Of a DNA stretch of 64,000 nt, positions 30,034 through 61,039 are shown in pieces. Below the pieces are notes generated by a model. That model ran no database searches and was not told the DNA's origin. It was given only the letters and a program-made list of their open reading frames with translations. This stretch comes from Escherichia phage rV5_ev158. The position numbers and the translations under genes were made by a program. Each line of letters opens with the position of its first letter. Within the stretch, counting starts at the first letter, position 1. Location: sequence record LR694611. The stretch is one strand, 5' to 3'.

Positions 30034-31382
30034 AAGTTCTTCTCTTTTCTTTTACCGAGTAATTCGGGTTTTCTGTTCTCTTCGGTTTGAAGGGGTATGG
30101 AGATACACCTGAGTGAACAGGGTGAACAACCGAACCATTGGCTATGGCATTAGCATGGCGAAGCGGACGGGTGACGAAAGAGGGGCCGGAGGACACCAGT
30201 CACTGCCATATGATATATGGGTGATAACCTGAAGAGTCTGAATAAGTGTTTAAGTACCAGTCAGAGGAAAAGGTGAATGGTAGCCGAAGGGGGATGGGGG
30301 GTTTCTTGTATCTTTAATTTGTATATTATGTATACACTTGTAAACCAATCTCATCTGAATCTGTTTACCACACAAAGCGGATAGAGACAAATATCACCTA
30401 TTAAACTTGAATTATTTATAGAAAATACCACAACACCACTTAAGTCTTTGATTTTACACACAAATCCTACAGATATTCAACCTCCATATTTAACATACTT
30501 GTAACATATTCCATACTCTACCTGTCTGATCAATTTCCCCAACTACATTCTCATATTTTCCCTGTCTGTACTACCCCTGCCCCGCCGGGAGTCCCGTCAT
30601 ATCTGGCTTTCCAGCAAATATCACACCCACAAATATCATTGCCTGAAGAGGGTTTCATCCCATAATACCTGCCTTACCTGAAGAGCGCTTCATACACCAC
30701 GTAAATTTTTTAATTGACCTCCCCCTGCCCCGCCGGAGAGGTTGGCTTTTCCCACACAGACCTGAAGAGTCAGCCAGAAATATCTGAACAGGCCCAATTC
30801 TACCACGATTTTGACCTGACCTACAGGGAGGCCCGAAGGGTCTAGCTTTCAGCTAGAGTCCTTGCAGGACCTACAGGAGCGCTGCCAGGCGGACGGAATG
30901 GGAATACTTCTCATTCTTATAACAATTCTCAAATATCGAGACAGTGAGAGAAATTAATAGGCCAGGCCGTTCACACAGTGGCACAACATTTGCAACCTAT
31001 TTTGGGTGGATGAATGAGAATACCTATCATTGTGAGAACTGTTATCATTACGGGCAATTTAACATAATACCCATTATGCGCACCACCGGCGATACATACA
31101 GGGATTGATAACATGGGTTACTGTTTACGCACATAACAATTATATTTCTTACTATTTGTGTGGGATATAGTTAGCAGCCGATAGATTAGATATTAACCTG
31201 CAGACTTCTGACCGTCCAGACGTCTAAACGCCCACACACCAAGGATTATACATACACTCCTGAATGTAAACAGGGCCGCAAAAATGCTACCATACAAGCT
31301 TGTAAATTTTTCATGCAGCACTTGACAAAGAGGAGAAAAACTTGTCTGACATAATGTGACCTAACTGACACAACATGACACT

Positions 31383-31471
31383 TTTACACACCTATTAGTT
31401 TACACACTGGATTGTTTACATTCCTGATTGTTCACATGCTAACCATTTACATGATTGACTGTTTACACACC
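31383..31471. repeat. iteron-like array, six copies of (T/A)GTT(T/C)ACA spaced 14-16 bp
   Basis: TTTTACACACC, AGTTTACACAC, TGTTTACATTC, TGTTCACATGC, CATTTACATGA, TGTTTACACACC; further TGTTTAC copies near 31121, 31265 (inverted), 31871, 31924, 31973. Confidence 0.6.
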
Positions 31472-31479
31472 GATAATCA

Positions 31480-31773
31480 GCCATGCCATTCGTTTGCATG
31501 AAAACAATTAACAAGATAACAATCGACAAGTTAATAATCTTTCGCTGGCTATGCCAGGTGACTAGGTCACCCCTTCGGGCGTTCCTATGACATAATATAA
31601 AAGCAGGGCAACTATTAGCAGATCTATAGTTGCCTTGCTTGTTATGTCATGATTAACTAAATACAAGGCAACTATGATCTGATTAATAGTTTGCAGACAA
31701 ACTATCACGGGGGTGATGGTTACTGCTTTTATATTATGTCGCGACTCCGTCGCGCCATGCCATTCGTTTGCAT
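31480..31773. repeat. 20 bp perfect direct repeats flanking a palindrome-rich 274 bp module
   Basis: GCCATGCCATTCGTTTGCAT at 31480-31499 and 31754-31773; between them a ~66 bp imperfect palindrome (31586-31652, centre AGATCT), GCAACTAT/ATAGTTGC inverted repeats and hairpin CGCGACTCCGTCGCG. Confidence 0.6.
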
Positions 31774-32380
31774 AGTTGCCTTATTGTTACGAATAAAACA
31801 ATTGCATTGTTAATGATTTCTTATCTTTCTCTTAGTCATCTAATGATTCCAGTCAGTATAGTAATGTACAGTAAACATTAGACGACTAAAGATTTCTCTG
31901 TTTATGATAACTCATCTTGATAATTTCGGACTGTTTACGAAAAATGTTGACACCTGAGCTGATTTATGTTATGCAGTTTACACGAATAATTATTTTATGC
32001 AGGTATTGACTATTCCGTTATTCTGTGGTTGGAATAAATACTTTGCAGGCTATAGAATGGCGTGCGTACGTGAATTCTGAGATCTGGCGGCTATAGTTAT
32101 ACTCGATTTTTCGCGTAGAACACGCTTTCGATGCTGTGTAAGTGTATGACTTATAAAGATTTTTAGTTGTTGACAAGATATTGGAGATGTGCATCAGGTT
32201 AAAATTTGTGCAATAGCGGCATTACGTGCACTTTTGGGAGAGAAAACGGGTAAAAATGGACTTGCTACCACACAATGAAAAATTATGCAATAGTTATTTT
32301 CCATGTATATTTGTACAGTATGTGGGATTGATGGCTAGTCAATTATTCCACTTGCCAGGTAGGGCCGTTTATGGTAGGAG

Positions 32381-33594: not shown

Positions 33595-33812
33595 AGTGTT
33601 TTCCTCTCTTCTGGTTGTTGTGTGGGCACCTTTGCCCCTTCAAGATAAATGTTACCCCACCCCCTGGCAGATGTCAACGGTTTTTATAGTTCTTATATGA
33701 CAGGCAGGCCTGGTGATTGTCTCCCCCTGTTCCCAAGTGCCGCCCGTTTAATAAGAATAGCAAAAGGGGCCGAACAAGTCAACCCCAAAATCAGTACCAA
33801 AACACTTTTTAT

Positions 33813-37269: not shown

Positions 37270-37315
37270 GTCTATCACTCCTTGTTAACTGCGTGGTATT
37301 TTAACAGGGTTTAAA

Positions 37316-37359
37316 TTTACTTTATTGATGGCCCTGGAGTCAAGGCCATCTAAAAATAA
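37316..37359 (-). promoter_or_regulatory. conserved 44 bp promoter/operator-like element, copy 1
   Basis: TTTACTTTATTGATGGCCCTGGAGTCAAGGCCATCTAAAAATAA; on minus strand TTGACT -35 lies in the loop of palindrome GATGGCC...GGCCATC; about 47 nt upstream of the next minus-strand gene. Confidence 0.5.
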
Positions 37360-37362
37360 ATT

Positions 37363-40706: not shown

Positions 40707-40764
40707 TGTATTGATAAACTATCTTTATAGATGGCCCTGCTACCAGGACCACCGAAAAAACAGT

Positions 40765-41010
40765 TTATTTGACGATACCGACAAAACAGATCCCGCCTTC
40801 CCCTATATAGGCAATATCGGTAATTTTATAATTTGTCAAGATCCGCGTGTTCAGCTCATTAATAAAATCTGTCATCGCGTTGGTGTAGTTGTCTTCCGTG
40901 TCTAAGGCATAATCCCAGGTGTAAACCTTTTTACGTCCGAAGCCTTTTACCATGATACGGGCGCTTTTGGTGTTGGTAGGGGCATAATATTTGGTGATTA
41001 GTGCTGCCAT
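40765..41010 (-). CDS. hypothetical protein
   Basis: 81 aa; preceded by conserved 44 bp element copy 2. Confidence 0.45.
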   Translation of the reverse strand: MAALITKYYAPTNTKSARIMVKGFGRKKVYTWDYALDTEDNYTNAMTDFINELNTRILTNYKITDIAYIGEGGICFVGIVK

Positions 41011-41053
41011 GGTTTTAACTCCTATGCATTAGTTCAGTGTTAACAGTATAAAG

Positions 41054-41097
41054 TTTACTTTATTGATGGCCCTGGAGTCAAGGCCATCTAAAAATAA
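41054..41097 (-). promoter_or_regulatory. conserved 44 bp promoter/operator-like element, copy 2
   Basis: Near-identical to copy 1; about 44 nt upstream of gene start 41010. Confidence 0.5.
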
Positions 41098-41099
41098 TC

Positions 41100-41441
41100 T
41101 TACTCGTTTTCTTCCAGCTCCGCAAGCTCTTCTTTTGCTTCTTCTAACTCTGTCTGTAATTCCTGGTATTCTTCATCGTCCTCAATATCCAGGCTGTCGA
41201 TGTAGTCGCTAAATCCGCAGCGGTAAGCGATAGGATCTAGCTCCTTGAGGATACGCGACGGAAGAAAAGAAATGTTTCCGATCATGATTTCGCCGTAGAT
41301 CTCGTCTAACCATTCATCATAGTTTTCGTCGTACTTGTCCTCGTCGATTTCAAAGGTATCGATCTTGTTCTCAAGGTCTGCGATCTGTTTTTTCAGTGCG
41401 GCAACCTGAATAGCTTTTTCTGCGGCGGTCATAGTAGTCAT
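41100..41441 (-). CDS. highly acidic coiled-coil protein
   Basis: 113 aa, Asp/Glu-rich. Confidence 0.5.
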   Translation of the reverse strand: MTTMTAAEKAIQVAALKKQIADLENKIDTFEIDEDKYDENYDEWLDEIYGEIMIGNISFLPSRILKELDPIAYRCGFSDYIDSLDIEDDEEYQELQTELEEAKEELAELEENE

Positions 41442-41640: not shown

Positions 41641-41674
41641 CTTAAAGCCCCCTTTTTCGCTTAACTGAGATTAG

Positions 41675-41718
41675 TTTACTTTATCGATGGCCCTGGAGTC
41701 AAGGCCATCTAAAAATAA
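41675..41718 (-). promoter_or_regulatory. conserved 44 bp promoter/operator-like element, copy 3
   Basis: Same sequence with one substitution (ATCGATGG). Confidence 0.5.
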
Positions 41719-41720
41719 AC

Positions 41721-42125
41721 TCAATAAGTTTTTAGTACTTTCCCGTCCAACCTGTCTAGCTGGATCTCAATGGCTGCAGAAAACCTATTATAAACCACGT
41801 CGCCCATGGAATCCAACCAGTCTATGACGTTATACACTTGCTCTTTGTTCTTGCAGGTCCGGATCCGTTTCATGATGTAAGCCGGATCAATATTGGTACT
41901 CTCGTTGGTGTTCCCCTGTACCTGGTTTGCCGTATTAGCCACATCTTTAATGGCCTTTACCACCACCTGGAAGGGCTTTAAGGTGCCTTTTGCGTTCATC
42001 TCACGCGCTTTTGCGGCGCGGTTGTTATAGGTTACACAACGGCGGCAAATGTTCACTAAGTGCATGTCAATAATTTTTTCATCGTTTGCCAGTTCGTTCA
42101 TGATGCGGCGTACGTTCTTATTCAT
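41721..42125 (-). CDS. hypothetical protein
   Basis: 134 aa. Confidence 0.5.
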   Translation of the reverse strand: MNKNVRRIMNELANDEKIIDMHLVNICRRCVTYNNRAAKAREMNAKGTLKPFQVVVKAIKDVANTANQVQGNTNESTNIDPAYIMKRIRTCKNKEQVYNVIDWLDSMGDVVYNRFSAAIEIQLDRLDGKVLKTY

Positions 42126-42962: not shown

Positions 42963-43130
42963 TTATTTTTTTGGGTAGAATTCTCCAGCCGCCGCCCCTG
43001 CCAGGTTAACCATCATTTTTTCGTACTCTTCTTTATGTTCCAACGCTCCCGCCATAGCCTTTTCAACCAGGGCGATAGCCTCAGCGTCATTAATAGCTAC
43101 ATTTTCCAGGGGGATCATATTACCTTCCAT
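42963..43130 (-). CDS. small protein, 55 aa
   Basis: AGAGGAGGT 7 nt upstream of ATG 43130; below ORF-track cutoff. Confidence 0.4.
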   Translation of the reverse strand: MEGNMIPLENVAINDAEAIALVEKAMAGALEHKEEYEKMMVNLAGAAAGEFYPKK

Positions 43131-43673
43131 TTTTGTACCTCCTCTTCAATTGTTACCTATCCTATAGCATAGGCCCACCAGGTTTGCAAGCCTTCATTCT
43201 CTCCTACCTGGTCAGTTAGGCCCTGCCAGGCTGGCCCCGCCAGGTTGCAGCGGTCAGCGCATCAGGTTAGAATTTTTTTTTTTGAAAAGTGTTGACAGCG
43301 GCCCCGCCAGGTGGCAAAATATACCTATCGAAAGGACGGCAGGCACCGGTGACGGGGGAGACAACCACCGGGGATGGGCGCTGCATGAAATGAGAACGAT
43401 TATCATTATCGTCTAAAAATTTATGCAAAAACTTCTTGCTTTCTTTGTCCTGTGTGTTACTATAATAACAAGCCGGGGCAGTAGGGGCCGGGAGACAATC
43501 ACCGGGCCTGCCCGTTATTCTGCAAACGAGAATGATTATCATTCAAAATTCTAAATGAGAACTCCTCGCATTTAATAAATTTAATTAGCACGCTAATTAC
43601 CCTACGTAACAATTTCCTATAAAATAGTATCCACTAAAATATTCCCATATAGAAATTTTAAAAATCCATTTCT

Positions 43674-43836
43674 GAAAACGAAAAATCGATTTCGTCCCCA
43701 AAAATTTCAGGTCGAGAGCCGGAACGATTTCCGGAAAATCCGATTCAGAAAACGAAAAACAGATCGAGTACTGAGAAATTTATCGAGAAAAATTTTCAGA
43801 AAATTCAATCTTTGAAACGAAAAACAGATCGAGTAC
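43674..43836. repeat. direct repeats GAAAACGAAAAACAGATCGAGTAC (two near-exact copies plus one degenerate)
   Basis: Copies start near 43674 (degenerate), 43747 and 43813; period about 66-73 bp; no convincing ORF. Confidence 0.55.
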
Positions 43837-44147
43837 TTGGAAAGCTGCGCCACAACTTCAAGGTAGTGGTTGGATTATTACTATAAAAGGTCAAGGGTAA
43901 GTGGGGGAAGTTCTAGTAGAAGGGTGTGAGCATGTGCGGGAAATCTGTAATGGTGGTCTGGAATATGGTGCAGACGATAGGATGAGTGGTTCATCTCGTC
44001 GTGCCTGCTCTGAAAAATCCATTTTAGTTTTCGATCCATTTTCTGATTTTCTAAGGATTTTAAAATATCCTGGTAGGTAAAATATCAAAAGGAGGAAATC
44101 CATTTTAGAAATCCTCCTGATCTCTGGCAACCTGATAACTTAAAATA

Positions 44148-44480
44148 TCAGGCTCCCAGTGTGTTCTTTCCTTTATACAACCGTAAGGGTATAGTTTTTG
44201 TAACAGTCCATCTCCCCAGCCCTTCCCAGTTCCAGTTGTAGGCATGGTACCCGGTTACGCATGCACTGCTGGAGTGATCATAGGCATAAGAGAACGCTAT
44301 ACGCACCAAATGAAACCAGTCTTTCCACGGTTGTGGTCCGTAAGCTTTTCTCCAACACCGACACAAGCTAAATGTCTCAAGAATAGGCAGGATAACAAAT
44401 CCATACACCGCCACCAGAATAGCCAACGCAATGATTGTCAGGAATACATACCCTGCAGTTGAAACGATGATCTCTGTCAT
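44148..44480 (-). CDS. membrane protein
   Basis: N-terminal TM VFLTIIALAILVAVYGFVILPIL. Confidence 0.5.
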   Translation of the reverse strand: MTEIIVSTAGYVFLTIIALAILVAVYGFVILPILETFSLCRCWRKAYGPQPWKDWFHLVRIAFSYAYDHSSSACVTGYHAYNWNWEGLGRWTVTKTIPLRLYKGKNTLGA

Positions 44481-55617: not shown

Positions 55618-57696
55618 TTAAAAAGGCGTTTCATCATCCTCAAAACCAGGGACCGGGTCAGAGGATGGATCATCGTACTGGAGGTCTTCCTGCGTGTCAA
55701 CAGGCTTAACAGTAGGAGTTACAACCTTATCAGCCACAACCTTGCCCATAGGTGTTTCTACAACTGCATGCTCCTGATCCTCAAACATAGCCTGAGGTCT
55801 CCAAACAACCTCCCCACCTTCTCCGTCTGTAAACATTTGCATTTCTTTGTCCCAGTACCAATTACTGGCATCATGGAACTTACCTGTGTGCGGGTCCATA
55901 ACCAAAGTGTCAGCAATACCTAGAGTTTTTGCTGGACGGTTTTTAAGACCTACCAGACGGACACGTCCACGAGAACGATCCACCATTTCTTCGGCCTCGA
56001 CACCTATGACTACCCAACTCAACTGTTCAAGCCCCGCCGATCCTCGCAAATTCTCTTTTCGCACAGGATACCAGAAAGGTAACGGGTTACCATCCTTGTC
56101 CTTAGGAGGCACAATCTCTGTACGTTTGAGGTGAGCGATCACCAAGATAAACACGTTAAACTGCTTACAAAACGCAGCCAGCTGAGTCATAGCCATGTCC
56201 AGTTCTTTTCGCTCATCCTTAACATTAAGCCCTGAAATTACCATGGACAGGTGATCCAGCACAATATAACGGCAATGGTACAGGCAAACCATTTGCTTAA
56301 GCTTGGTAATCAACTCGTCCACCGGAATAGATCCGAAATGTTTGAACACTTTGATTTTTCCAGCTTTTGCCCATGATTGGTGAATCTCTGCGTGTTCTTG
56401 ATCAGTTAAAAACTGGCTAGGATCTTCAACAAACTCTTTAACATCAAACCCTAACTGGTTTGCATACAAGGAGTTAATTGCTTCCTCTGGGTCCTCCTCA
56501 AGATGGATCATACATAGACGATCATCCTCTTCATAGTCATCAGCCTTCGGGCATGTCGGGTCCATTAGGTATCTTGCAATACAATGTTCCAGTTTTTTAG
56601 CTACAGTTGTTTTACCGCCCCCTGATGGCCCTGTAAGCATTACGAGTGTCCCTTTGTGCAAGCCTTTTAGCATTTTTTGCAGTTTTGGGAACTCTGCGCT
56701 GATATCTACCCCGTTGGAAGTCTTTTTCCGCAAAGACTCGATAGAGAAGTCTTCTAAATCCGACACAGCATCAGGCACATATTTAACAGGGTGCCGGAAC
56801 ATGTTGACAATATCTTCCAGCTTTTTAGCCTTCAGCATGTCACGGATATCTTTTACCCCGTCAGGGTCATTTACTTCACCAGGGTATTCTACGTGGTAAA
56901 CGTTATCAGCCATCAAAAATGCTGCGATATTGTGCGTGGCCTCAACACCTTTAATGACGTGTTTTTGCTTCTCTACCTCGTTAGCTGCATCGTTATCCAT
57001 TGCCAGCACAACTGTTCCATAGCTACGGATAAACTTCTCATTGTTTGCAAAAGTATCTACTGCGTTTGCACATCCACAGTTAATTCCAACAAAAGGCAGG
57101 CAGGGTTTTCCTGCCAGATCACCACCGTTGATAACTGCGTCGATCCCGTCCTGGACCTCTTTAGCCCACTGCTTCACCTTTGCCGGGGCTTTAGCGTTGG
57201 TGAGAATCCCTTTTACTTGTATCTGATATGCAGCCTGCCATGCTGCAATAACATCACCTTCTCCCTCACAAACGTTAATCTGCTTACGGTTGTTGGAAGA
57301 TGCACACAGCTTTTGACCAAACATCTGGGAGTTGGCCTTTACGATGCCAACAACGGAGAAGTGGCCCCTTTGTTCTTTAGGAATAGTCCAGTCACGCTTT
57401 TTGAAACCGGACAGATTTCCGTAGCGGTCGTAATATGGGAAATATGTTGCAGTGACTGTCACACCGTCTTCTTGTGACAATGCTGATCGCACACCAAAAT
57501 ATTGTGCAGCCATCAGACCGATATTTTGTTGTGGGACAGGGACAATTTTAGTATTTTCTAAAACAGTCTCTACAGTTTCAACTTCTTTTTCATCACGATA
57601 GTCTCGTTTCACACTTCCCCCACTTTTATACTTAGTTGCTTTCGGGTTTGGCTCACCGAAACGGTTGTATGCAGATGCCATAAATTTACTTCCCAT
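55618..57696 (-). CDS. primase-helicase (TOPRIM primase plus DnaB/gp4-like helicase)
   Basis: 692 aa; TOPRIM-like VVLAMDNDAAN; Walker A LTGPSGGGKTT; Walker B-like IVLDHLSMV. Confidence 0.75.
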   Translation of the reverse strand: MGSKFMASAYNRFGEPNPKATKYKSGGSVKRDYRDEKEVETVETVLENTKIVPVPQQNIGLMAAQYFGVRSALSQEDGVTVTATYFPYYDRYGNLSGFKKRDWTIPKEQRGHFSVVGIVKANSQMFGQKLCASSNNRKQINVCEGEGDVIAAWQAAYQIQVKGILTNAKAPAKVKQWAKEVQDGIDAVINGGDLAGKPCLPFVGINCGCANAVDTFANNEKFIRSYGTVVLAMDNDAANEVEKQKHVIKGVEATHNIAAFLMADNVYHVEYPGEVNDPDGVKDIRDMLKAKKLEDIVNMFRHPVKYVPDAVSDLEDFSIESLRKKTSNGVDISAEFPKLQKMLKGLHKGTLVMLTGPSGGGKTTVAKKLEHCIARYLMDPTCPKADDYEEDDRLCMIHLEEDPEEAINSLYANQLGFDVKEFVEDPSQFLTDQEHAEIHQSWAKAGKIKVFKHFGSIPVDELITKLKQMVCLYHCRYIVLDHLSMVISGLNVKDERKELDMAMTQLAAFCKQFNVFILVIAHLKRTEIVPPKDKDGNPLPFWYPVRKENLRGSAGLEQLSWVVIGVEAEEMVDRSRGRVRLVGLKNRPAKTLGIADTLVMDPHTGKFHDASNWYWDKEMQMFTDGEGGEVVWRPQAMFEDQEHAVVETPMGKVVADKVVTPTVKPVDTQEDLQYDDPSSDPVPGFEDDETPF

Positions 57697-58480
57697 TAAT
57701 TCTGCTCCTTACTACAGGCTCGTTTGCTAGGAATACGGCTTTTGCCCAGCCACGTGGTGTGAGGCTTCGGATCATCTTCGTTCTTGCACTCTTTCCACCC
57801 AGCTTGGCGTGTTGCATGGAATACCCGCTAACCGCGTCAACTATTTGCGGGACAGGTTTTGTGGCCGGGATTATAAATCCATTACCTATCCAGCCGCAAG
57901 TTATTTTTGGATAGGCATCACGTGGAGCTATAAATTCAGGAAACCAGGGGTTTACATCATCCTCCGGTAAATACCCGCCATAGTCAGAAGGGTGAAAACG
58001 GTAATCAGGTTTGCGCCACAGTGTGGACATAACACCCACAGGATTCTCTACATGCCACGGGCAATCGTAAATCTCTCCCAACTCTTCTGCAACCCGAGCA
58101 TCCTTTACAGCATTAATCTGGATCAGCGGGTCCTTAGCCAGCTTCTTCTTAAAGTGTGCAGCACCTGACACCGCTAAGTGGGTGCACGGAGGAAATGCAA
58201 GAACAAAGTCCGGAGCTGGGTACATGCAGAAAGTTTCCTGAGGGAACCATGGATCAATCCAATAATCTACATAGTGAATATTTGGATGATCGGTGATCAC
58301 CTCTGCATAACTGCCGTGGTCAGCACCTTCTGCGTTAAAGCACAGGCACAGATATCCAGCTTTTGCCCAGTCAATGACTGCACCGCCAGATCCGTCAAAT
58401 AGACTCCACACAACACCTTTGTGGTAGTGTTCTTTATAGATAAATTTCAATTTGCTGTCTCCTAATGCAAAAAGCCCCAC
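57686..58480 (-). CDS. C5-cytosine methyltransferase-like protein (short)
   Basis: LFDGSGG (motif I FxGxG), AFPPC (motif IV PC) and HVENPVG (motif VI ENV) in C5-MTase order; only 264 aa. Confidence 0.45.
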   Translation of the reverse strand: MGLFALGDSKLKFIYKEHYHKGVVWSLFDGSGGAVIDWAKAGYLCLCFNAEGADHGSYAEVITDHPNIHYVDYWIDPWFPQETFCMYPAPDFVLAFPPCTHLAVSGAAHFKKKLAKDPLIQINAVKDARVAEELGEIYDCPWHVENPVGVMSTLWRKPDYRFHPSDYGGYLPEDDVNPWFPEFIAPRDAYPKITCGWIGNGFIIPATKPVPQIVDAVSGYSMQHAKLGGKSARTKMIRSLTPRGWAKAVFLANEPVVRSRINGK

Positions 58481-59395: not shown

Positions 59396-59739
59396 CAGAA
59401 ACCTCCCACTTCTTCAGCAAATGCAGCTGCTGTCGTCGCTGCATCCAGATAGGACTCTAGTTCACGGGCTGCACGTTTGTAAATTGAGTGTCGCAAATCG
59501 TTTGGCAGTTGGTGGAAGTCCACCTCTTCACCGTTGTGGTAAACATGCACATCGGTAATTTGTCTAAATCCGTAATAGTCAACATCAGAATCACGGCACT
59601 CTGGGTCTGGCAACTGGACAACTGCCTGAGCTTCCACAGTGAACATATCGTCAAGTTCGAAATCGATTTCAAAAGTGTATGGTTTATAACATTTCATCAT
59701 TTGATTGTACTCTTTATTGATCAGACTTATCTTTCGCAA
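59395..59739 (-). CDS. hypothetical protein
   Basis: 114 aa. Confidence 0.45.
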   Translation of the reverse strand: MRKISLINKEYNQMMKCYKPYTFEIDFELDDMFTVEAQAVVQLPDPECRDSDVDYYGFRQITDVHVYHNGEEVDFHQLPNDLRHSIYKRAARELESYLDAATTAAAFAEEVGGF

Positions 59740-61039
59740 TTAAGGTCGGGGCAAGTTTGTAATAACGGAAGCCACCACCACCTTGCCAGTTTACAGACTT
59801 AGAAATACCACCTTGATCTTCACCATCGATCACTTTTTCCAAGCGCGGAATAATATGGGTATGACAATGATCACCTAGCTCGATTGAGATCCAACGTCTT
59901 TTCATCTTGTGAGCTACAGCAGCAGTAGTTCCCGAACCACCGAATGAATCCAATACCAAATAGCCTTCTCGCGTACACATTTCGAAAATTCGCTTCAAAA
60001 GCGCTTCTGGTTTTTTCCCATTTTTGAAACTAACGCCGCCTTCATTTGCTATTCCATTCCAACTAATGTCTGTCCAAACATCAGTTATTAGTTCCGCAGG
60101 TTGCATATCACCGTCAATTTCCAAAAGCCTGTTGGAGTAAAAGACCATTTGCCTACCATTTACGATATAAAATCCTTCAACATCTTCATTTGGATGTACA
60201 TAAACCTTATCCCTATCTTTCTTTGACTTCTCGATAGTTTCTTTTCTCTTTATTTTAGCACCACCGCCGATTGCAACAGATTGAAATACACGTTCTGCAT
60301 TATCAATTGCGAATTGTGCTAATTCATCATCGAATGTATCAGGCAGTTTTTTCTTGGCCTCTTTTGCATCTTTATAGCCATTGGCCTTTGCAAACGCATC
60401 GGCAATACCGCACCACGTCCAATTTTTATAATGGTCATCCGGGTTTAATAGGTATTTGTTATATCCTGTATCGTACCCTTTAGGTATATAGATTTTGTTA
60501 AGCGGTTTCTGGGTGCGATCTTTTGCATATACAAGCAAAAAGTTTGCTGTGGAGAAAACTGTGGCTCCTGTTGCCTTAAATCCCGAAGGGGAATTTGTGG
60601 TCATCGATATGGTATTTAACTGATTTGCACGACCAAAAATCTCGTCCATCAAAACTTTTAAATACGCCATTTCGCAATCATCTAAGTGAACGAATATTAC
60701 CCCATCATCACTTAGAAGATTACGAATTATTTCTAACCTATCCCTCATTAAGCCCAGCCAAATGGAATGCTCCAGGCTATCATCGTAGTGCTCAAAAGCC
60801 CTCCCGGTATTGAATGGCGGGTCTATGTAAACACACTTCACTTTGCCTGCATACTCTTGCTCTAGCGCCTTCAATGCTAATAAGTTATCTCCAAAAATCA
60901 GTTTATTATCAAAAATATCGTTTTCGGTCACTTTCTGGCTGCGGTAAGACTTGCTAGAATCTTCTAATAAAATGTGCGGCTCTAACTTTTTGCGCTCGTT
61001 TTTACCTATCCAGGTAAGTTCTAATTTGGTTTTGCTCAT
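59714..61039 (-). CDS. DNA methyltransferase (N6-adenine or N4-cytosine, beta-class motif order)
   Basis: VYIDPPFNTG (motif IV) near N-terminus and LVLDSFGGSGTT (motif I) near C-terminus; AAGGAGAG upstream. Confidence 0.7.
   Translation of the reverse strand: MSKTKLELTWIGKNERKKLEPHILLEDSSKSYRSQKVTENDIFDNKLIFGDNLLALKALEQEYAGKVKCVYIDPPFNTGRAFEHYDDSLEHSIWLGLMRDRLEIIRNLLSDDGVIFVHLDDCEMAYLKVLMDEIFGRANQLNTISMTTNSPSGFKATGATVFSTANFLLVYAKDRTQKPLNKIYIPKGYDTGYNKYLLNPDDHYKNWTWCGIADAFAKANGYKDAKEAKKKLPDTFDDELAQFAIDNAERVFQSVAIGGGAKIKRKETIEKSKKDRDKVYVHPNEDVEGFYIVNGRQMVFYSNRLLEIDGDMQPAELITDVWTDISWNGIANEGGVSFKNGKKPEALLKRIFEMCTREGYLVLDSFGGSGTTAAVAHKMKRRWISIELGDHCHTHIIPRLEKVIDGEDQGGISKSVNWQGGGGFRYYKLAPTLIAKDKSDQ

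What the first reader, a model, noticed from the sequence alone, without database searches (positions are those of the whole stretch)
43674..43836. Direct repeats of GAAAACGAAAAACAGATCGAGTAC with about 45 bp unique spacers
There are two near-exact 24-26 bp copies (starting near 43747 and 43813) and one degenerate copy (near 43674), at a 66-73 bp period. They are flanked by recurring AAATCCATTT motifs and an AGGAGGA...TCCTCCT inverted repeat near 44090. The layout superficially resembles a mini-array but is more likely an iteron or operator array.
Basis: seen in the sequence. Interest (0 to 1): 0.5.

Follow-up and report, generated by a model that had tools for sequence, protein, structure and literature searches.

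The report
Essential repeat module in rV5-like phages
The repeats are real and are three copies of a conserved protein-binding-type DNA unit, in a gene-free stretch that published transposon data show the phage cannot do without; it is probably part of the still unmapped replication origin of rV5-like phages, not a CRISPR-like array.

Summary
The window is an rV5-like phage (Vequintavirus). The repeats exist as described, but the "spacers" are not unique. The locus is a tandem triplication of a 57-nt unit (43648-43704, 43722-43778, 43787-43843; spacing 74 and 65 bp).

The units lie in a 1-kb gene-free gap, 43131-44147. Its internal order is conserved across Vequintavirinae genera, although the flanking genes are not:
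- two + strand sigma70-type promoters pointing against the surrounding genes;
- GC-rich hairpins;
- Fur-box-like palindromes;
- three direct units with core AATACGATCnnGAAAAYGAAAAACCGATCGAG;
- a variable stretch;
- a second short-motif array.

A profile built only from other genera finds exactly these three units as the top hits in the 64-kb window. There is no conserved ORF, no RNA-fold signal and no compensated stem. The least stable 100 bp of the window sits just upstream of the units.

Published transposon data for the 99.4%-identical phage Bas54 show almost no insertions from the promoters to unit 3, while neighbouring genes tolerate them.

Best reading: iteron-like binding sites in an essential cis-acting module, probably a transcription-activated origin (confidence 0.4). 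The palindrome array also occurs in the T5 injection-stop region.

The parts
43292..43320 (+). Promoter P1, TTGACA-17-CAAAAT with TG before the -10. It points away from the neighbouring minus-strand genes.
   Evidence: Consensus scan, 10 of 12 matches. A + strand promoter sits at the same relative place in CR8, Mydovirus, Kashira and ukendt.
43335..43385 (+). GC-rich promoter-proximal element 1, containing GGAGACAACCACC at 43357-43369.
   Evidence: The motif occurs 3 times in the window against 0.13 expected. Two tandem units of about 135 bp carry it (families D3 and D6).
43388..43408 (.). Palindrome PAL1, AAATGAGAACGATTATCATTA. Its 7-1-7 core TGAGAAC-G-ATTATCA resembles a Fur box.
   Evidence: The match to the Fur consensus comes from my own knowledge of that consensus and was not tested.
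43436..43466 (+). Promoter-like P2: TTGCTT, then TACTAT (16-nt spacer) or TATAAT (19-nt spacer). It falls below the scan threshold in this window.
   Evidence: Read from the sequence. The orthologous position in CR8 and Mydovirus is TTGCAA-17-TATATT.
43470..43520 (+). GC-rich hairpin element 2, with GGAGACAATCACC at 43491-43503. A third copy lies at 33697-33725 on the minus strand.
   Evidence: Folding of 43465-43580 gives z = -2.08. Conserved into distant genera.
43524..43573 (.). Palindromes PAL2 (43524-43544) and PAL3 (43553-43573), 29 bp apart.
   Evidence: (D3). Two to four copies at 29-bp spacing occur in other genera and in T5-like phages.
43570..43669 (.). AT-rich segment (23% G+C), the least stable 100 bp of the whole 64-kb window.
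   Evidence: Nearest-neighbour stability profile. It largely coincides with 'bas54_0101' (window 43597-43701), whose 11 TA sites all lack insertions.
43648..43704 (+). Unit 1, the degenerate copy. It contains AAATCCATTTCTGAAAACGAAAAATCGATTTCG. A GGTCGAGAGCC lies displaced at 43710-43720.
   Evidence: 63% identity in register. The profile from other genera hits 43661-43690, E 0.04, third best hit in the window.
43722..43778 (+). Unit 2, the reference copy, with core AAATCCGATTCAGAAAACGAAAAACAGATCGAGTAC.
   Evidence: Profile hit at 43730-43771, E 1.9e-4, the best in the window.
43787..43843 (+). Unit 3, with core AAATTCAATCTTTGAAACGAAAAACAGATCGAGTAC.
   Evidence: Profile hit at 43796-43836, E 2e-3, second best in the window.
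43844..44009 (.). Fast-evolving filler with 1-2 nt indels. No ORF is conserved here.
   Evidence: Divergence 0.185 against 0.048 for the units. Alignment and ORF comparison.
44010..44120 (.). Right-hand motif array: ATCCATTTT three times, GGATTTTAAAATATCC, AAAATATCA, and the inverted repeat AGGAGGAAATCC...GAAATCCTCCT at 44090-44118.
   Evidence: An analogous AAATCYGATYT / CAAATATCA array sits at the same place in other genera. It is among the least stable segments of the window.

Best explanation
The repeats are the best-conserved cores of three direct DNA units of about 40-57 bp. I read them as binding sites for a DNA-binding protein specific to Vequintavirinae, that is, iteron-like sites. 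They sit inside an autonomous, gene-free, essential cis-acting module.

The most likely function of the module is the phage's replication origin. Two early host-type promoters fire against the flow of the neighbouring genes. Transcription passes through an array of palindromic sites into the most easily melted DNA of the region. The three bound units next to it organise opening or replisome loading.

Shown:
- the anatomy of the module;
- its conservation across genera;
- the absence of coding and RNA-structure signals;
- intolerance to insertions in a near-identical phage (published data).

Inferred:
- that a protein binds the units;
- that the promoters are active;
- that the essential function is replication initiation.
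For: 1. The units are real and unique. The 24-mer occurs only here, and GATCGAGWMC occurs only in units 2 and 3 within the 64 kb.

2. The units are homologous across genera. Three direct units of period 63-78 bp, with core AATACGATCnnGAAAAYGAAAAACCGATCGAG(A/T)(A/C)C, occur at the same place in Certrevirus (CR8, phiTE, F5M1E), a Klebsiella Mydovirus and Serratia phage Kashira. A profile built from those 15 units alone gives the three window units as its top three hits on either strand of the window.

3. The flanking genes are not shared between genera, but the gap architecture is.

4. The sequence behaves like a DNA site, not an RNA or a protein.
- The 3' GATCGAG is invariant, while the 5' CGATC arm decays without compensating changes.
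- Folding z-scores are +0.15 on the + strand and -0.42 on the - strand.
- No ORF is conserved in 13 Vequintavirus genomes, and annotators disagree.
- The conserved-looking minus-strand ORF shows no third-position bias: 14/11/11 variable sites by codon position.

5. The units are under purifying selection. Their divergence is 0.048, against 0.185 for the adjacent filler.

6. The layout resembles an origin. The + strand promoters are conserved in position. The least stable 100 bp of the window (43570-43669) lies between them and the units. In the other genera the local stability minima also fall inside the gap.

7. The replisome is of the T7 type, with a primase-helicase and a PolA-type polymerase. 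No origin is known for rV5; skew analysis failed to find one (PMC3606486).

8. The segment is essential. In Bas54 (MaxBurger), 99.4% identical here, Himar1 insertion data show:
- 0 of 11 TA sites hit in 'bas54_0101' (window 43597-43701);
- 1 of 3 hit in 'bas54_0100' (43707-43853);
- 5 of 15 hit in 'bas54_0102' (43264-43542);
- mean read counts of 0, 5 and 12.7, against 150-600 in neighbours;
- the real genes on both sides tolerate insertions (18 of 21, 12 of 14, 13 of 13, 25 of 25).
Source: bioRxiv 10.1101/2025.11.20.689424, Extended Data Table 8.
Against: - There is no direct evidence of replication initiation, of any bound protein, or of transcripts.
- A unit of about 40 bp at a 63-78 bp period is unlike classical 17-22 bp iterons. 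Helical phasing between the units is not conserved.
- The AT-rich 100-bp block upstream of the units is specific to the genus, not a constant of the module.
- The promoter-hairpin-palindrome part of the module also occurs in T5-like phages, inside the untranslated 'Repeat Region 3'. T5 origins were mapped elsewhere, near the middle of the genome (10.1101/866236). That part, at least, need not be an origin.
- A second non-coding region (30.4-32.0 kb) carries the same palindromes. It is also insertion-free in Bas54 and is an equally good origin candidate.
- There is no GATC clustering and no DnaA box in the gap.
- Origins of T4 and T7 are individually dispensable, so essentiality does not point specifically to an origin.
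Confidence: 0.4

Rival explanations
1. The module is a regulatory nucleoprotein site, not an origin. The three units are operator-like sites for a phage regulator. Together with the palindromes, which a host factor such as Fur might bind, they control or are controlled by the two antisense early promoters. This could time the early-to-middle switch or sequester a host protein.
For: - The palindromes are classic dimer-type operators with degenerate, uncompensated half-sites.
- The same promoter-hairpin-palindrome cassette sits upstream of an ordinary early gene at 33.7 kb, in a second non-coding region, and in T5-like phages at a place that is not their origin.
- In phAPEC8-like and T5-like phages, different lineage-specific direct repeats follow the palindromes.
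Against: - The neighbouring genes that such a site would regulate differ between genera. They are dispensable in Bas54, yet the site is not.
- The units lie 200-400 bp downstream of the promoters, not over them.
- Asymmetric direct repeats at a fixed copy number of three are less typical of operators.
Confidence: 0.25
2. The + strand promoters make an essential non-coding RNA of about 0.5-0.8 kb. The three units are repeated functional modules of that RNA, for example binding sites that soak up a host protein.
For: - Two positionally conserved promoters have no ORF downstream.
- All units have the same orientation as these promoters.
- The 570 bp from P1 to unit 3 are as conserved as coding DNA and are intolerant to insertions.
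- There is a precedent for repeated phage RNAs in phiTE pseudo-ToxI (PMC3475682).
Against: - There is no folding signal on either strand.
- No covariation supports the only candidate stem.
- No Rfam family matches, even at a permissive threshold.
- No convincing terminator is present.
- Linkers between units vary in length and sequence between genera.
- The phiTE pseudo-ToxI locus is at a different place in that genome.
Confidence: 0.15
3. The units are the recognition site (pac) at which the small terminase starts headful packaging.
For: - It would be an essential cis-acting site with a few asymmetric direct repeats and bendable A-tracts, as in lambda cosB or SPP1 pac. That comparison is my own knowledge.
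- Vequintavirus is reported to package by the headful route (PMC13211470).
Against: - The locus lies among early genes, far from the late-gene block of rV5 (rV5 map and transcription units, PMC3606486). No terminase gene was located here. Known pac sites are in or next to the small terminase gene (my own knowledge).
- Tandem early promoters and palindrome arrays have no role in known pac sites.
- Deposited genome starts fall near this locus in only about 2 of 60 listed records, which is the chance level.
Confidence: 0.08
4. The region encodes small proteins, as annotated in some records (bas54_0100, 0101, 0102). The repeats would then be internal repeats of a coding sequence.
For: - ORFs of 34, 48 and 91 codons exist on the minus strand.
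- The Bas54 study scored them as essential or as a strong fitness defect.
Against: - None of these ORFs is kept in all 13 Vequintavirus genomes. Frames are broken by 1-nt indels, and starts and lengths vary.
- Other genera have no matching ORFs over the units.
- The one ORF that recurs shows no codon-position bias.
- Annotators disagree from record to record.
Confidence: 0.04
5. The repeats are a CRISPR-like mini-array, a type III antitoxin mimic, or a neutral leftover of a duplication.
For: Regular spacing of a 24-nt repeat.
Against: - The spacers are homologous to one another.
- The copy number is fixed at three in all relatives examined.
- The units are not contiguous and are not structured.
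- The units are under purifying selection and are conserved across genera.
Confidence: 0.02

Closest known systems
Iteron-type replication origins (lambda ori, P1 oriR, pSC101, SPP1 oriL/oriR)
   Same: Several direct repeats in one orientation, unique in the genome, next to an easily melted AT-rich segment, and essential in cis.
   Different: The units are about 40 bp at a 63-78 bp period, instead of 17-22 bp at about 22 bp. No initiator gene has been identified. No DnaA boxes are present. Binding and origin activity are untested.
Transcription-activated phage origins (T7 primary origin with two tandem promoters plus an AT-rich stretch; T4 oriF and oriG)
   Same: Tandem promoters aimed into an AT-rich segment. 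The replisome is of the T7 type, with a primase-helicase and a PolA-type polymerase.
   Different: The promoters are of the host sigma70 type. Palindrome arrays and three sequence-specific units are added. T7 and T4 origins are individually dispensable, whereas this locus is not. The comparison rests on my knowledge of T7 and T4, not on a test.
[quoted passage not shown]
   Same: It is a non-coding region of 1.2-1.7 kb that is better conserved than the neighbouring genes. It contains the same AAATGAGAAYnATTMTCATTT array at a 29-bp period after a GC hairpin, followed by a run of lineage-specific direct repeats that share AATCCGA.
   Different: The finding's own unit (...GAAAAACnGATCGAG...) is absent from the T5-like loci. 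The paired DnaA boxes of T5 are absent here. Vequintavirus packages by the headful route; a circularly permuted genome (my inference from headful packaging) has no fixed entering end, which makes an injection-stop role unlikely.
phiTE pseudo-ToxI repeats (PMC3475682)
   Same: A repeated non-coding sequence in a phage of the same subfamily.
   Different: It lies at another locus (106.7 kb in phiTE, against about 39.6 kb for this module). It consists of contiguous 36-nt repeats whose number changes under selection, and it acts as a folded RNA.

Membership tests
CRISPR array | Near-identical repeats separated by unique spacers of similar length | tested here: not met
   The inter-repeat DNA is itself repeated: 57-nt units align in register at 63-77% identity. 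One of the three copies is degenerate.
CRISPR array | Variable repeat number between relatives; cas genes or a leader nearby | tested here: not met
   All 13 Vequintavirus genomes and the five genomes from other Vequintavirinae lineages have three units. The neighbours are small proteins of unknown function.
Iteron-type origin of replication | Multiple direct repeats in one orientation, unique to the locus | tested here: met
   Unit length and spacing are atypical.
Iteron-type origin of replication | Adjacent AT-rich unwinding element | tested here: met
   43570-43669 is the least stable 100 bp in 64 kb. In other genera the stability minima fall inside the gap but not at the same sub-position.
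Iteron-type origin of replication | Required in cis for propagation | tested here: met
   This rests on published transposon data for the 99.4%-identical Bas54, not on my own test: 0 of 11, 1 of 3 and 5 of 15 TA sites hit, against about 90% in the flanking genes. Counts per TA site for this locus were not retrievable.
Iteron-type origin of replication | Bound by a cognate initiator; supports initiation of DNA synthesis | not testable with these tools
   No initiator candidate was identified. This needs binding assays and replication mapping.
Transcription-activated origin (T7 / T4 type) | Promoter(s) directed into an AT-rich segment | tested here: met
   By consensus and by position only: P1, orthologous promoters, AT-rich block. 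P2 in this window is below the scan threshold.
Transcription-activated origin (T7 / T4 type) | The transcript primes or opens the origin | not testable with these tools
   No transcript data are available for this phage group.
T5 iss region (Repeat Region 3) | Array of palindromes and direct repeats after a GC hairpin, in a long untranslated region | tested here: met
   This holds for the module, not for the finding's units. The CR8 array matches T5-like phages by BLAST (78% identity, E 8e-8).
T5 iss region (Repeat Region 3) | Paired DnaA boxes in inverted repeats | tested here: not met
   No TTWTNCACA occurs in 43100-44200. The count for the whole window is at chance level.
T5 iss region (Repeat Region 3) | Location in a long terminal repeat of a genome injected in two steps | tested here: not met
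   Vequintavirus is reported to use headful packaging. The locus is internal in every record seen.
Type III antitoxin-like RNA repeats (ToxI / pseudo-ToxI) | Contiguous tandem repeats of 34-40 nt that fold into pseudoknots | tested here: not met
   The period is 63-78 bp with non-repeated linkers. Folding z-scores are near zero. The known phiTE locus lies elsewhere.
Fur box (for the neighbouring palindromes only) | 7-1-7 inverted repeat TGATAAT-n-ATTATCA | tested here: inconclusive
   The commonest form, TGAGAATGATTATCA, differs from that consensus at 1 of 14 specified positions. The consensus is from memory. No Fur matrix or binding test was available, and short BLAST searches against E. coli were uninformative.

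The most novel reading that the evidence does not exclude
The module is a previously unrecognised, essential nucleoprotein hub shared in variant forms by unrelated virulent enterobacterial phages (rV5-like, phAPEC8-like, T5-like). Each version has a common cassette of early promoter, hairpin and a Fur-like palindrome array read by a host factor, coupled to lineage-specific direct repeats read by a phage protein. In rV5-like phages the hub would be the origin. If so, the long-debated T5 'injection stop' region contains a module whose job is something other than stopping injection, possibly linking phage development to host iron status.
Probability: 0.15. Interest if true: 0.8.

Novelty: new member of a known kind. 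Interest (0 to 1): 0.55.

Why it matters
rV5-like phages are broad-host-range candidates for therapy, and their origin of replication and early control circuits are unknown.

This work identifies a compact non-coding module, conserved across the subfamily, that published transposon data show to be indispensable. It also shows that three 'essential or important genes of unknown function' in the Bas54 map are probably not genes at all.

The work gives precise motifs to mutate and to use as bait. Anyone engineering these genomes needs to know not to disturb this locus.

The shared palindrome array gives a new comparative handle on the T5 injection-stop region, which has resisted genetic analysis for decades.

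Tried and rejected
- Rfam search of the whole window at gathering thresholds, and of the gap at a permissive E-value: nothing credible.
- tRNA search of the window and of six related loci: none found. The tRNA features listed for the Klebsiella record over this locus could not be reproduced.
- Two scans of IMG/VR with short patterns (GAAAAACNGATCGAG, and GATCGAG-gap-GATCGAG): only scattered single hits that look like chance. They were uninformative and a poor use of the cap.
- The search for related loci with the neighbouring 110-aa protein gave only two loci.
- The phiTE pseudo-ToxI lead was rejected, because that locus is elsewhere in the genome.
- A tRNA-remnant idea, prompted by the roughly 70-nt period, has no support.
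- Dam / SeqA idea: GATC is not enriched in the gap, with 4 sites per kb against a window mean of 5.25. Neither phage methyltransferase could be assigned to the Dam family by Pfam.
- DnaA boxes: none in the gap.
- BLAST of the palindromes and of the repeat region against E. coli genomes found no meaningful match.
- The consensus fold of the hairpin element across genera was inconclusive, because the alignment was not structure-aware.
- Per-TA-site insertion counts for this locus are not in the stored part of the supplement.
- The resemblance of the minus strand of the units (GATCTGTTTTTCG) to the oriC 13-mers (GATCTnTTnTTTT) comes from memory only. I did not use it as evidence.

Full report
**What the window is**

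The region 43100-44200 is 100% identical to Escherichia phage rV5_ev168 (Vequintavirus). It is 86-99% identical to many other rV5-like phages: 248 phage records match, and 112 of them cover at least 80% of the query. The finding lies in a gap of about 1 kb, 43131-44147, inside a long block of small minus-strand genes. Depositors annotate between zero and seven different small ORFs in this gap, on either strand.

**Checking the observation**

- The 24-mer GAAAACGAAAAACAGATCGAGTAC is exact at 43748 and has two mismatches at 43813. It occurs nowhere else in 64 kb, and in no shuffle.
- A degenerate copy lies near 43674.
- The repeat finder shows that the similarity is not limited to 24 nt. Three 57-nt units (43648-43704, 43722-43778, 43787-43843) align in register at 63% and 77% identity, with spacing of 74 and 65 bp. 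The "unique spacers" are therefore not unique. This is a diverged tandem triplication.
- AAATCCATTT occurs exactly three times in the window, always in this gap.
- The AGGAGGA...TCCTCCT inverted repeat is at 44090-44118.
- Tandem Repeats Finder does not pick up the long period.

**The surroundings within the genus**

I aligned 13 Vequintavirus genomes and counted divergence by segment. The gap is a mosaic:

| Segment | Divergence from the window |
|---|---|
| Promoter-to-palindrome part, 43290-43575 | 0.03-0.04 |
| Three units | 0.048 |
| Right-hand array, 44010-44120 | 0.059 |
| Neighbouring coding sequences | 0.04-0.11 |
| Stretch between units and right array, 43844-44009 | 0.185, with 1-2 nt indels |

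The conserved parts are as conserved as the neighbouring coding sequences.

No ORF on either strand is kept in all 13 genomes.

Upstream of the units lie two tandem cassettes of about 135 bp. Each has:
- a + strand promoter. P1 is TTGACA-17-CAAAAT. P2 is weaker by consensus.
- a GC-rich element carrying GGAGACAAYCACC, which occurs three times in the window against 0.13 expected;
- a palindrome, AAATGAGAAYGATTATCATT.

The promoters point against the neighbouring genes. A third copy of the hairpin element follows an early promoter at 33.7 kb.

**Across genera**

Distant relatives match the query by BLAST only over the hairpin and palindrome part. Reading those loci shows that the whole order of parts is kept in Certrevirus (CR8, phiTE, F5M1E), a Klebsiella Mydovirus and Serratia phage Kashira:
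- two + strand promoters;
- the hairpin;
- two to four palindromes at 29-bp spacing;
- three direct units at 63-78 bp spacing;
- a variable stretch;
- an array of AAATCYGATYT and CAAATATCA motifs.

The units share the core AATACGATCnnGAAAAYGAAAAACCGATCGAG(A/T)(A/C)C.

As an independent test, I built a profile from the 15 units of the other genera only. Searched against both strands of the whole window, its three best hits are 43730-43771 (E 1.9e-4), 43796-43836 (E 2e-3) and 43661-43690 (E 0.04), all on the + strand. The next hit is at E 0.1.

The genes flanking the gap in those genera have no counterpart in this window. The module is therefore conserved independently of its neighbours. The phAPEC8-like phage ukendt keeps the promoter, hairpin and four palindromes, but follows them with different AT-rich repeats.

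**DNA site, RNA or protein?**

- The GATCGAG end of the unit never varies. The partly complementary CGATC arm decays in several copies with no compensating change.
- Folding of 43640-43860 is no better than shuffled sequence on either strand, with z = +0.15 and -0.42.
- No Rfam family matches.
- One minus-strand ORF recurs across genera, beginning MIIIL inside a palindrome. Its variable sites are spread 14/11/11 over the three codon positions, and its length and end are variable.

I conclude that the units act as DNA and most simply as protein-binding sites. They are asymmetric and directly repeated, which fits iteron-type sites better than dimer operators. The neighbouring palindromes do look like dimer operators.

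**Physical properties and context**

- The least stable 100 bp of the entire window is 43570-43669 (23% G+C), between the palindromes and unit 1. The right-hand array is also among the least stable segments.
- In the other genera the stability minima also fall inside the gap, though not at the same sub-position.
- The phage has a T7-type primase-helicase, a PolA-type polymerase and a Dda-like helicase 4-20 kb away.
- GATC is not enriched in the gap, and there are no DnaA boxes.
- The original rV5 paper looked for an origin by skew analysis and found only transcription-linked changes. Its promoter list has nothing in this gap.

**Experimental evidence from the literature**

A transposon-insertion study of Bas54 (phage MaxBurger, MZ501093.1) is available as bioRxiv 10.1101/2025.11.20.689424. 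Bas54 is 99.4% identical to the window here. Three annotated ORFs cover most of the promoter-to-unit-3 segment. I mapped their coordinates to the window, and the gene-level insertion data come.

| Bas54 ORF | Window coordinates | What it covers | TA sites hit | Call in the study |
|---|---|---|---|---|
| bas54_0102 | 43264-43542 | Promoters, hairpins, first two palindromes | 5 of 15 | Strong fitness defect |
| bas54_0101 | 43597-43701 | AT-rich block and unit 1 | 0 of 11 | Essential |
| bas54_0100 | 43707-43853 | Units 2 and 3 | 1 of 3 | Not classified |

- Mean read counts in the competition assay are 12.7, 0 and 5.0 for these three ORFs. The neighbours give 150-600.
- The real genes on either side tolerate insertions: bas54_0099 has 18 of 21 sites hit, 0103 has 12 of 14, 0104 has 13 of 13 and 0105 has 25 of 25.
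- Because those downstream genes are dispensable, polar effects cannot explain the gap.
- Because the three ORFs are not conserved as ORFs, the requirement is best read as a requirement for the DNA, or its transcript, in cis.
- The authors also note an insertion-free intergenic region of about 2 kb between bas54_0134 and 0135. From its description I take it to be the window's 30.4-32.0 kb non-coding region, which carries a second cluster of the same palindromes. I did not map its coordinates.
- Per-site counts for our locus are not in the stored part of the supplement.

**Link to T5**

A BLAST search with the CR8 module found T5-like phages over the palindrome array (78% identity over about 80 bp, E 8e-8). 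In two Tequintavirus genomes the match lies in a long untranslated region that contains:
- a GC hairpin followed by the palindrome;
- two DnaA boxes;
- six or more copies of the AAATGAGAAT... element at a period of about 29 bp;
- a terminator-like hairpin;
- six or more direct repeats, GTGCRAATCCGACA.

This is the "Repeat Region 3" that Davison describes as holding the T5 injection stop signal. He describes it as more rigorously conserved than many coding regions and of unresolved mechanism. T5 origins map elsewhere.

The finding's own unit is absent from the T5-like loci. The promoter-hairpin-palindrome cassette is therefore shared by three unrelated groups of virulent enterobacterial phages, and each group follows it with its own direct repeats. 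This pattern suggests a host protein for the shared part and a phage protein for the specific part. Vequintavirus is reported to use headful packaging; since that usually gives circularly permuted ends (my inference), a fixed injection-stop role is unlikely here.

**Interpretation**

The well-supported core is that the repeats are three copies of a conserved, DNA-level, probably protein-bound unit within an essential, autonomous, non-coding module. I put this at about 0.75.

For the function of the module I favour a transcription-activated replication origin (0.4), for these reasons:
- essential cis-acting DNA;
- direct repeats unique in the genome;
- tandem promoters aimed at the most meltable DNA;
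- a T7-type replisome;
- no known origin in this phage group.

Against it:
- the atypical unit size and spacing;
- the non-origin location of the related T5 cassette;
- the existence of a second candidate region.

The rivals are a regulatory or host-factor-binding site (0.25), an essential non-coding RNA (0.15), a pac site (0.08), small protein genes (0.04), and CRISPR-like, antitoxin-like or neutral repeats (0.02).

**Novelty**

I found no description of the units or of the module in the rV5 paper, the phiTE paper or the Bas54 study, which treats the segment as three genes of unknown function. As a kind of thing, cis-acting direct repeats in a phage control or origin region, it is familiar. 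As a sequence family and architecture it is new, and it now has experimental backing for importance.

Noticed in passing
window 43388-43408, 43524-43573, 30899-31047; L019 1534-1652; L261 1060-1590; L262 1440-2090: Arrays of a 21-bp palindrome, AAATGAGAAYnATTMTCATTT, with 7-1-7 core TGAGAAT-n-ATTCTCA. The commonest form is one base away from the Fur-box 7-1-7 consensus as I recall it. The arrays have a 29-bp period and are shared by rV5-like, phAPEC8-like and T5-like phages. In T5-like phages they lie in the untranslated injection-stop region. The window has 14 matches against 2.7 expected. Host Fur binding is a guess and was not tested.
   Followed up: partly
window 30400-32000: A second large non-coding region, near where the + and - strand gene blocks meet. 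It contains four of the same palindromes, repeated CCTGAAGAG, CAAATATCA and TGTTTACA motifs, and long inverted repeats. It is probably the insertion-free intergenic region of about 2 kb reported for Bas54. It is an alternative origin candidate.
   Followed up: partly
window 43357-43369, 43491-43503, 33712-33724 (minus strand): A promoter-proximal GC-rich hairpin with an almost invariant GAGACAAnCACC. It is present in three copies here and is conserved into other subfamilies. It always lies just downstream of a sigma70-type promoter. Its function is unknown, and a consensus fold across genera was inconclusive.
   Followed up: partly
window 43158-43320: Apparent divergent promoter pair. TTGCAA-17-TATAGG on the minus strand (read by eye) would serve the gene at 42963-43130. 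P1 lies on the + strand. The two are separated by a T11 run and by GGCCCCGCCAGGT repeats whose copy number varies between relatives.
   Followed up: no
window 37314-37362, 40717-40765, 41052-41100, 41673-41721: A 49-nt repeat family in the early region. It looks like a hairpin-plus-promoter cassette (GGCC TTGACTCCAG GGCC on the minus strand) reused between small early genes.
   Followed up: no
plasmid record CP057073.1 (L260): A complete 137.6-kb rV5-like genome, 99.1% identical over 43560-44140, is deposited as a circular 'plasmid' (pRHB39-C03_2) of an E. coli isolate from cattle faeces. This could reflect a carrier state or contamination. NCBI's annotation calls no genes in the gap.
   Followed up: partly
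L016 (Klebsiella phage vB_Kpn_K23PH08C2, OY757067.1 4031-7113): The record annotates a dense run of tRNA genes and HNH pseudogenes over this locus. ARAGORN finds no tRNA there, and the sequence is the same promoter-palindrome-three-unit module. The record's feature coordinates look displaced.
   Followed up: partly
window 44076-44085 and 44056-44071, + strand: GGTAAAATA and TTTAAAATATCC resemble the late-promoter motif TGGTAAAATA proposed for rV5 (PMC3606486, Table S4). Here they lie on the + strand inside the right-hand array, where no + strand gene follows.
   Followed up: no
window 57686-58480 and 59714-61039 (minus strand): Two DNA methyltransferase genes sit next to the primase-helicase gene. 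One has an N6_N4_Mtase domain and the other has no Pfam match. Their specificity is unknown. This matters because every full unit keeps a GATC.
   Followed up: partly
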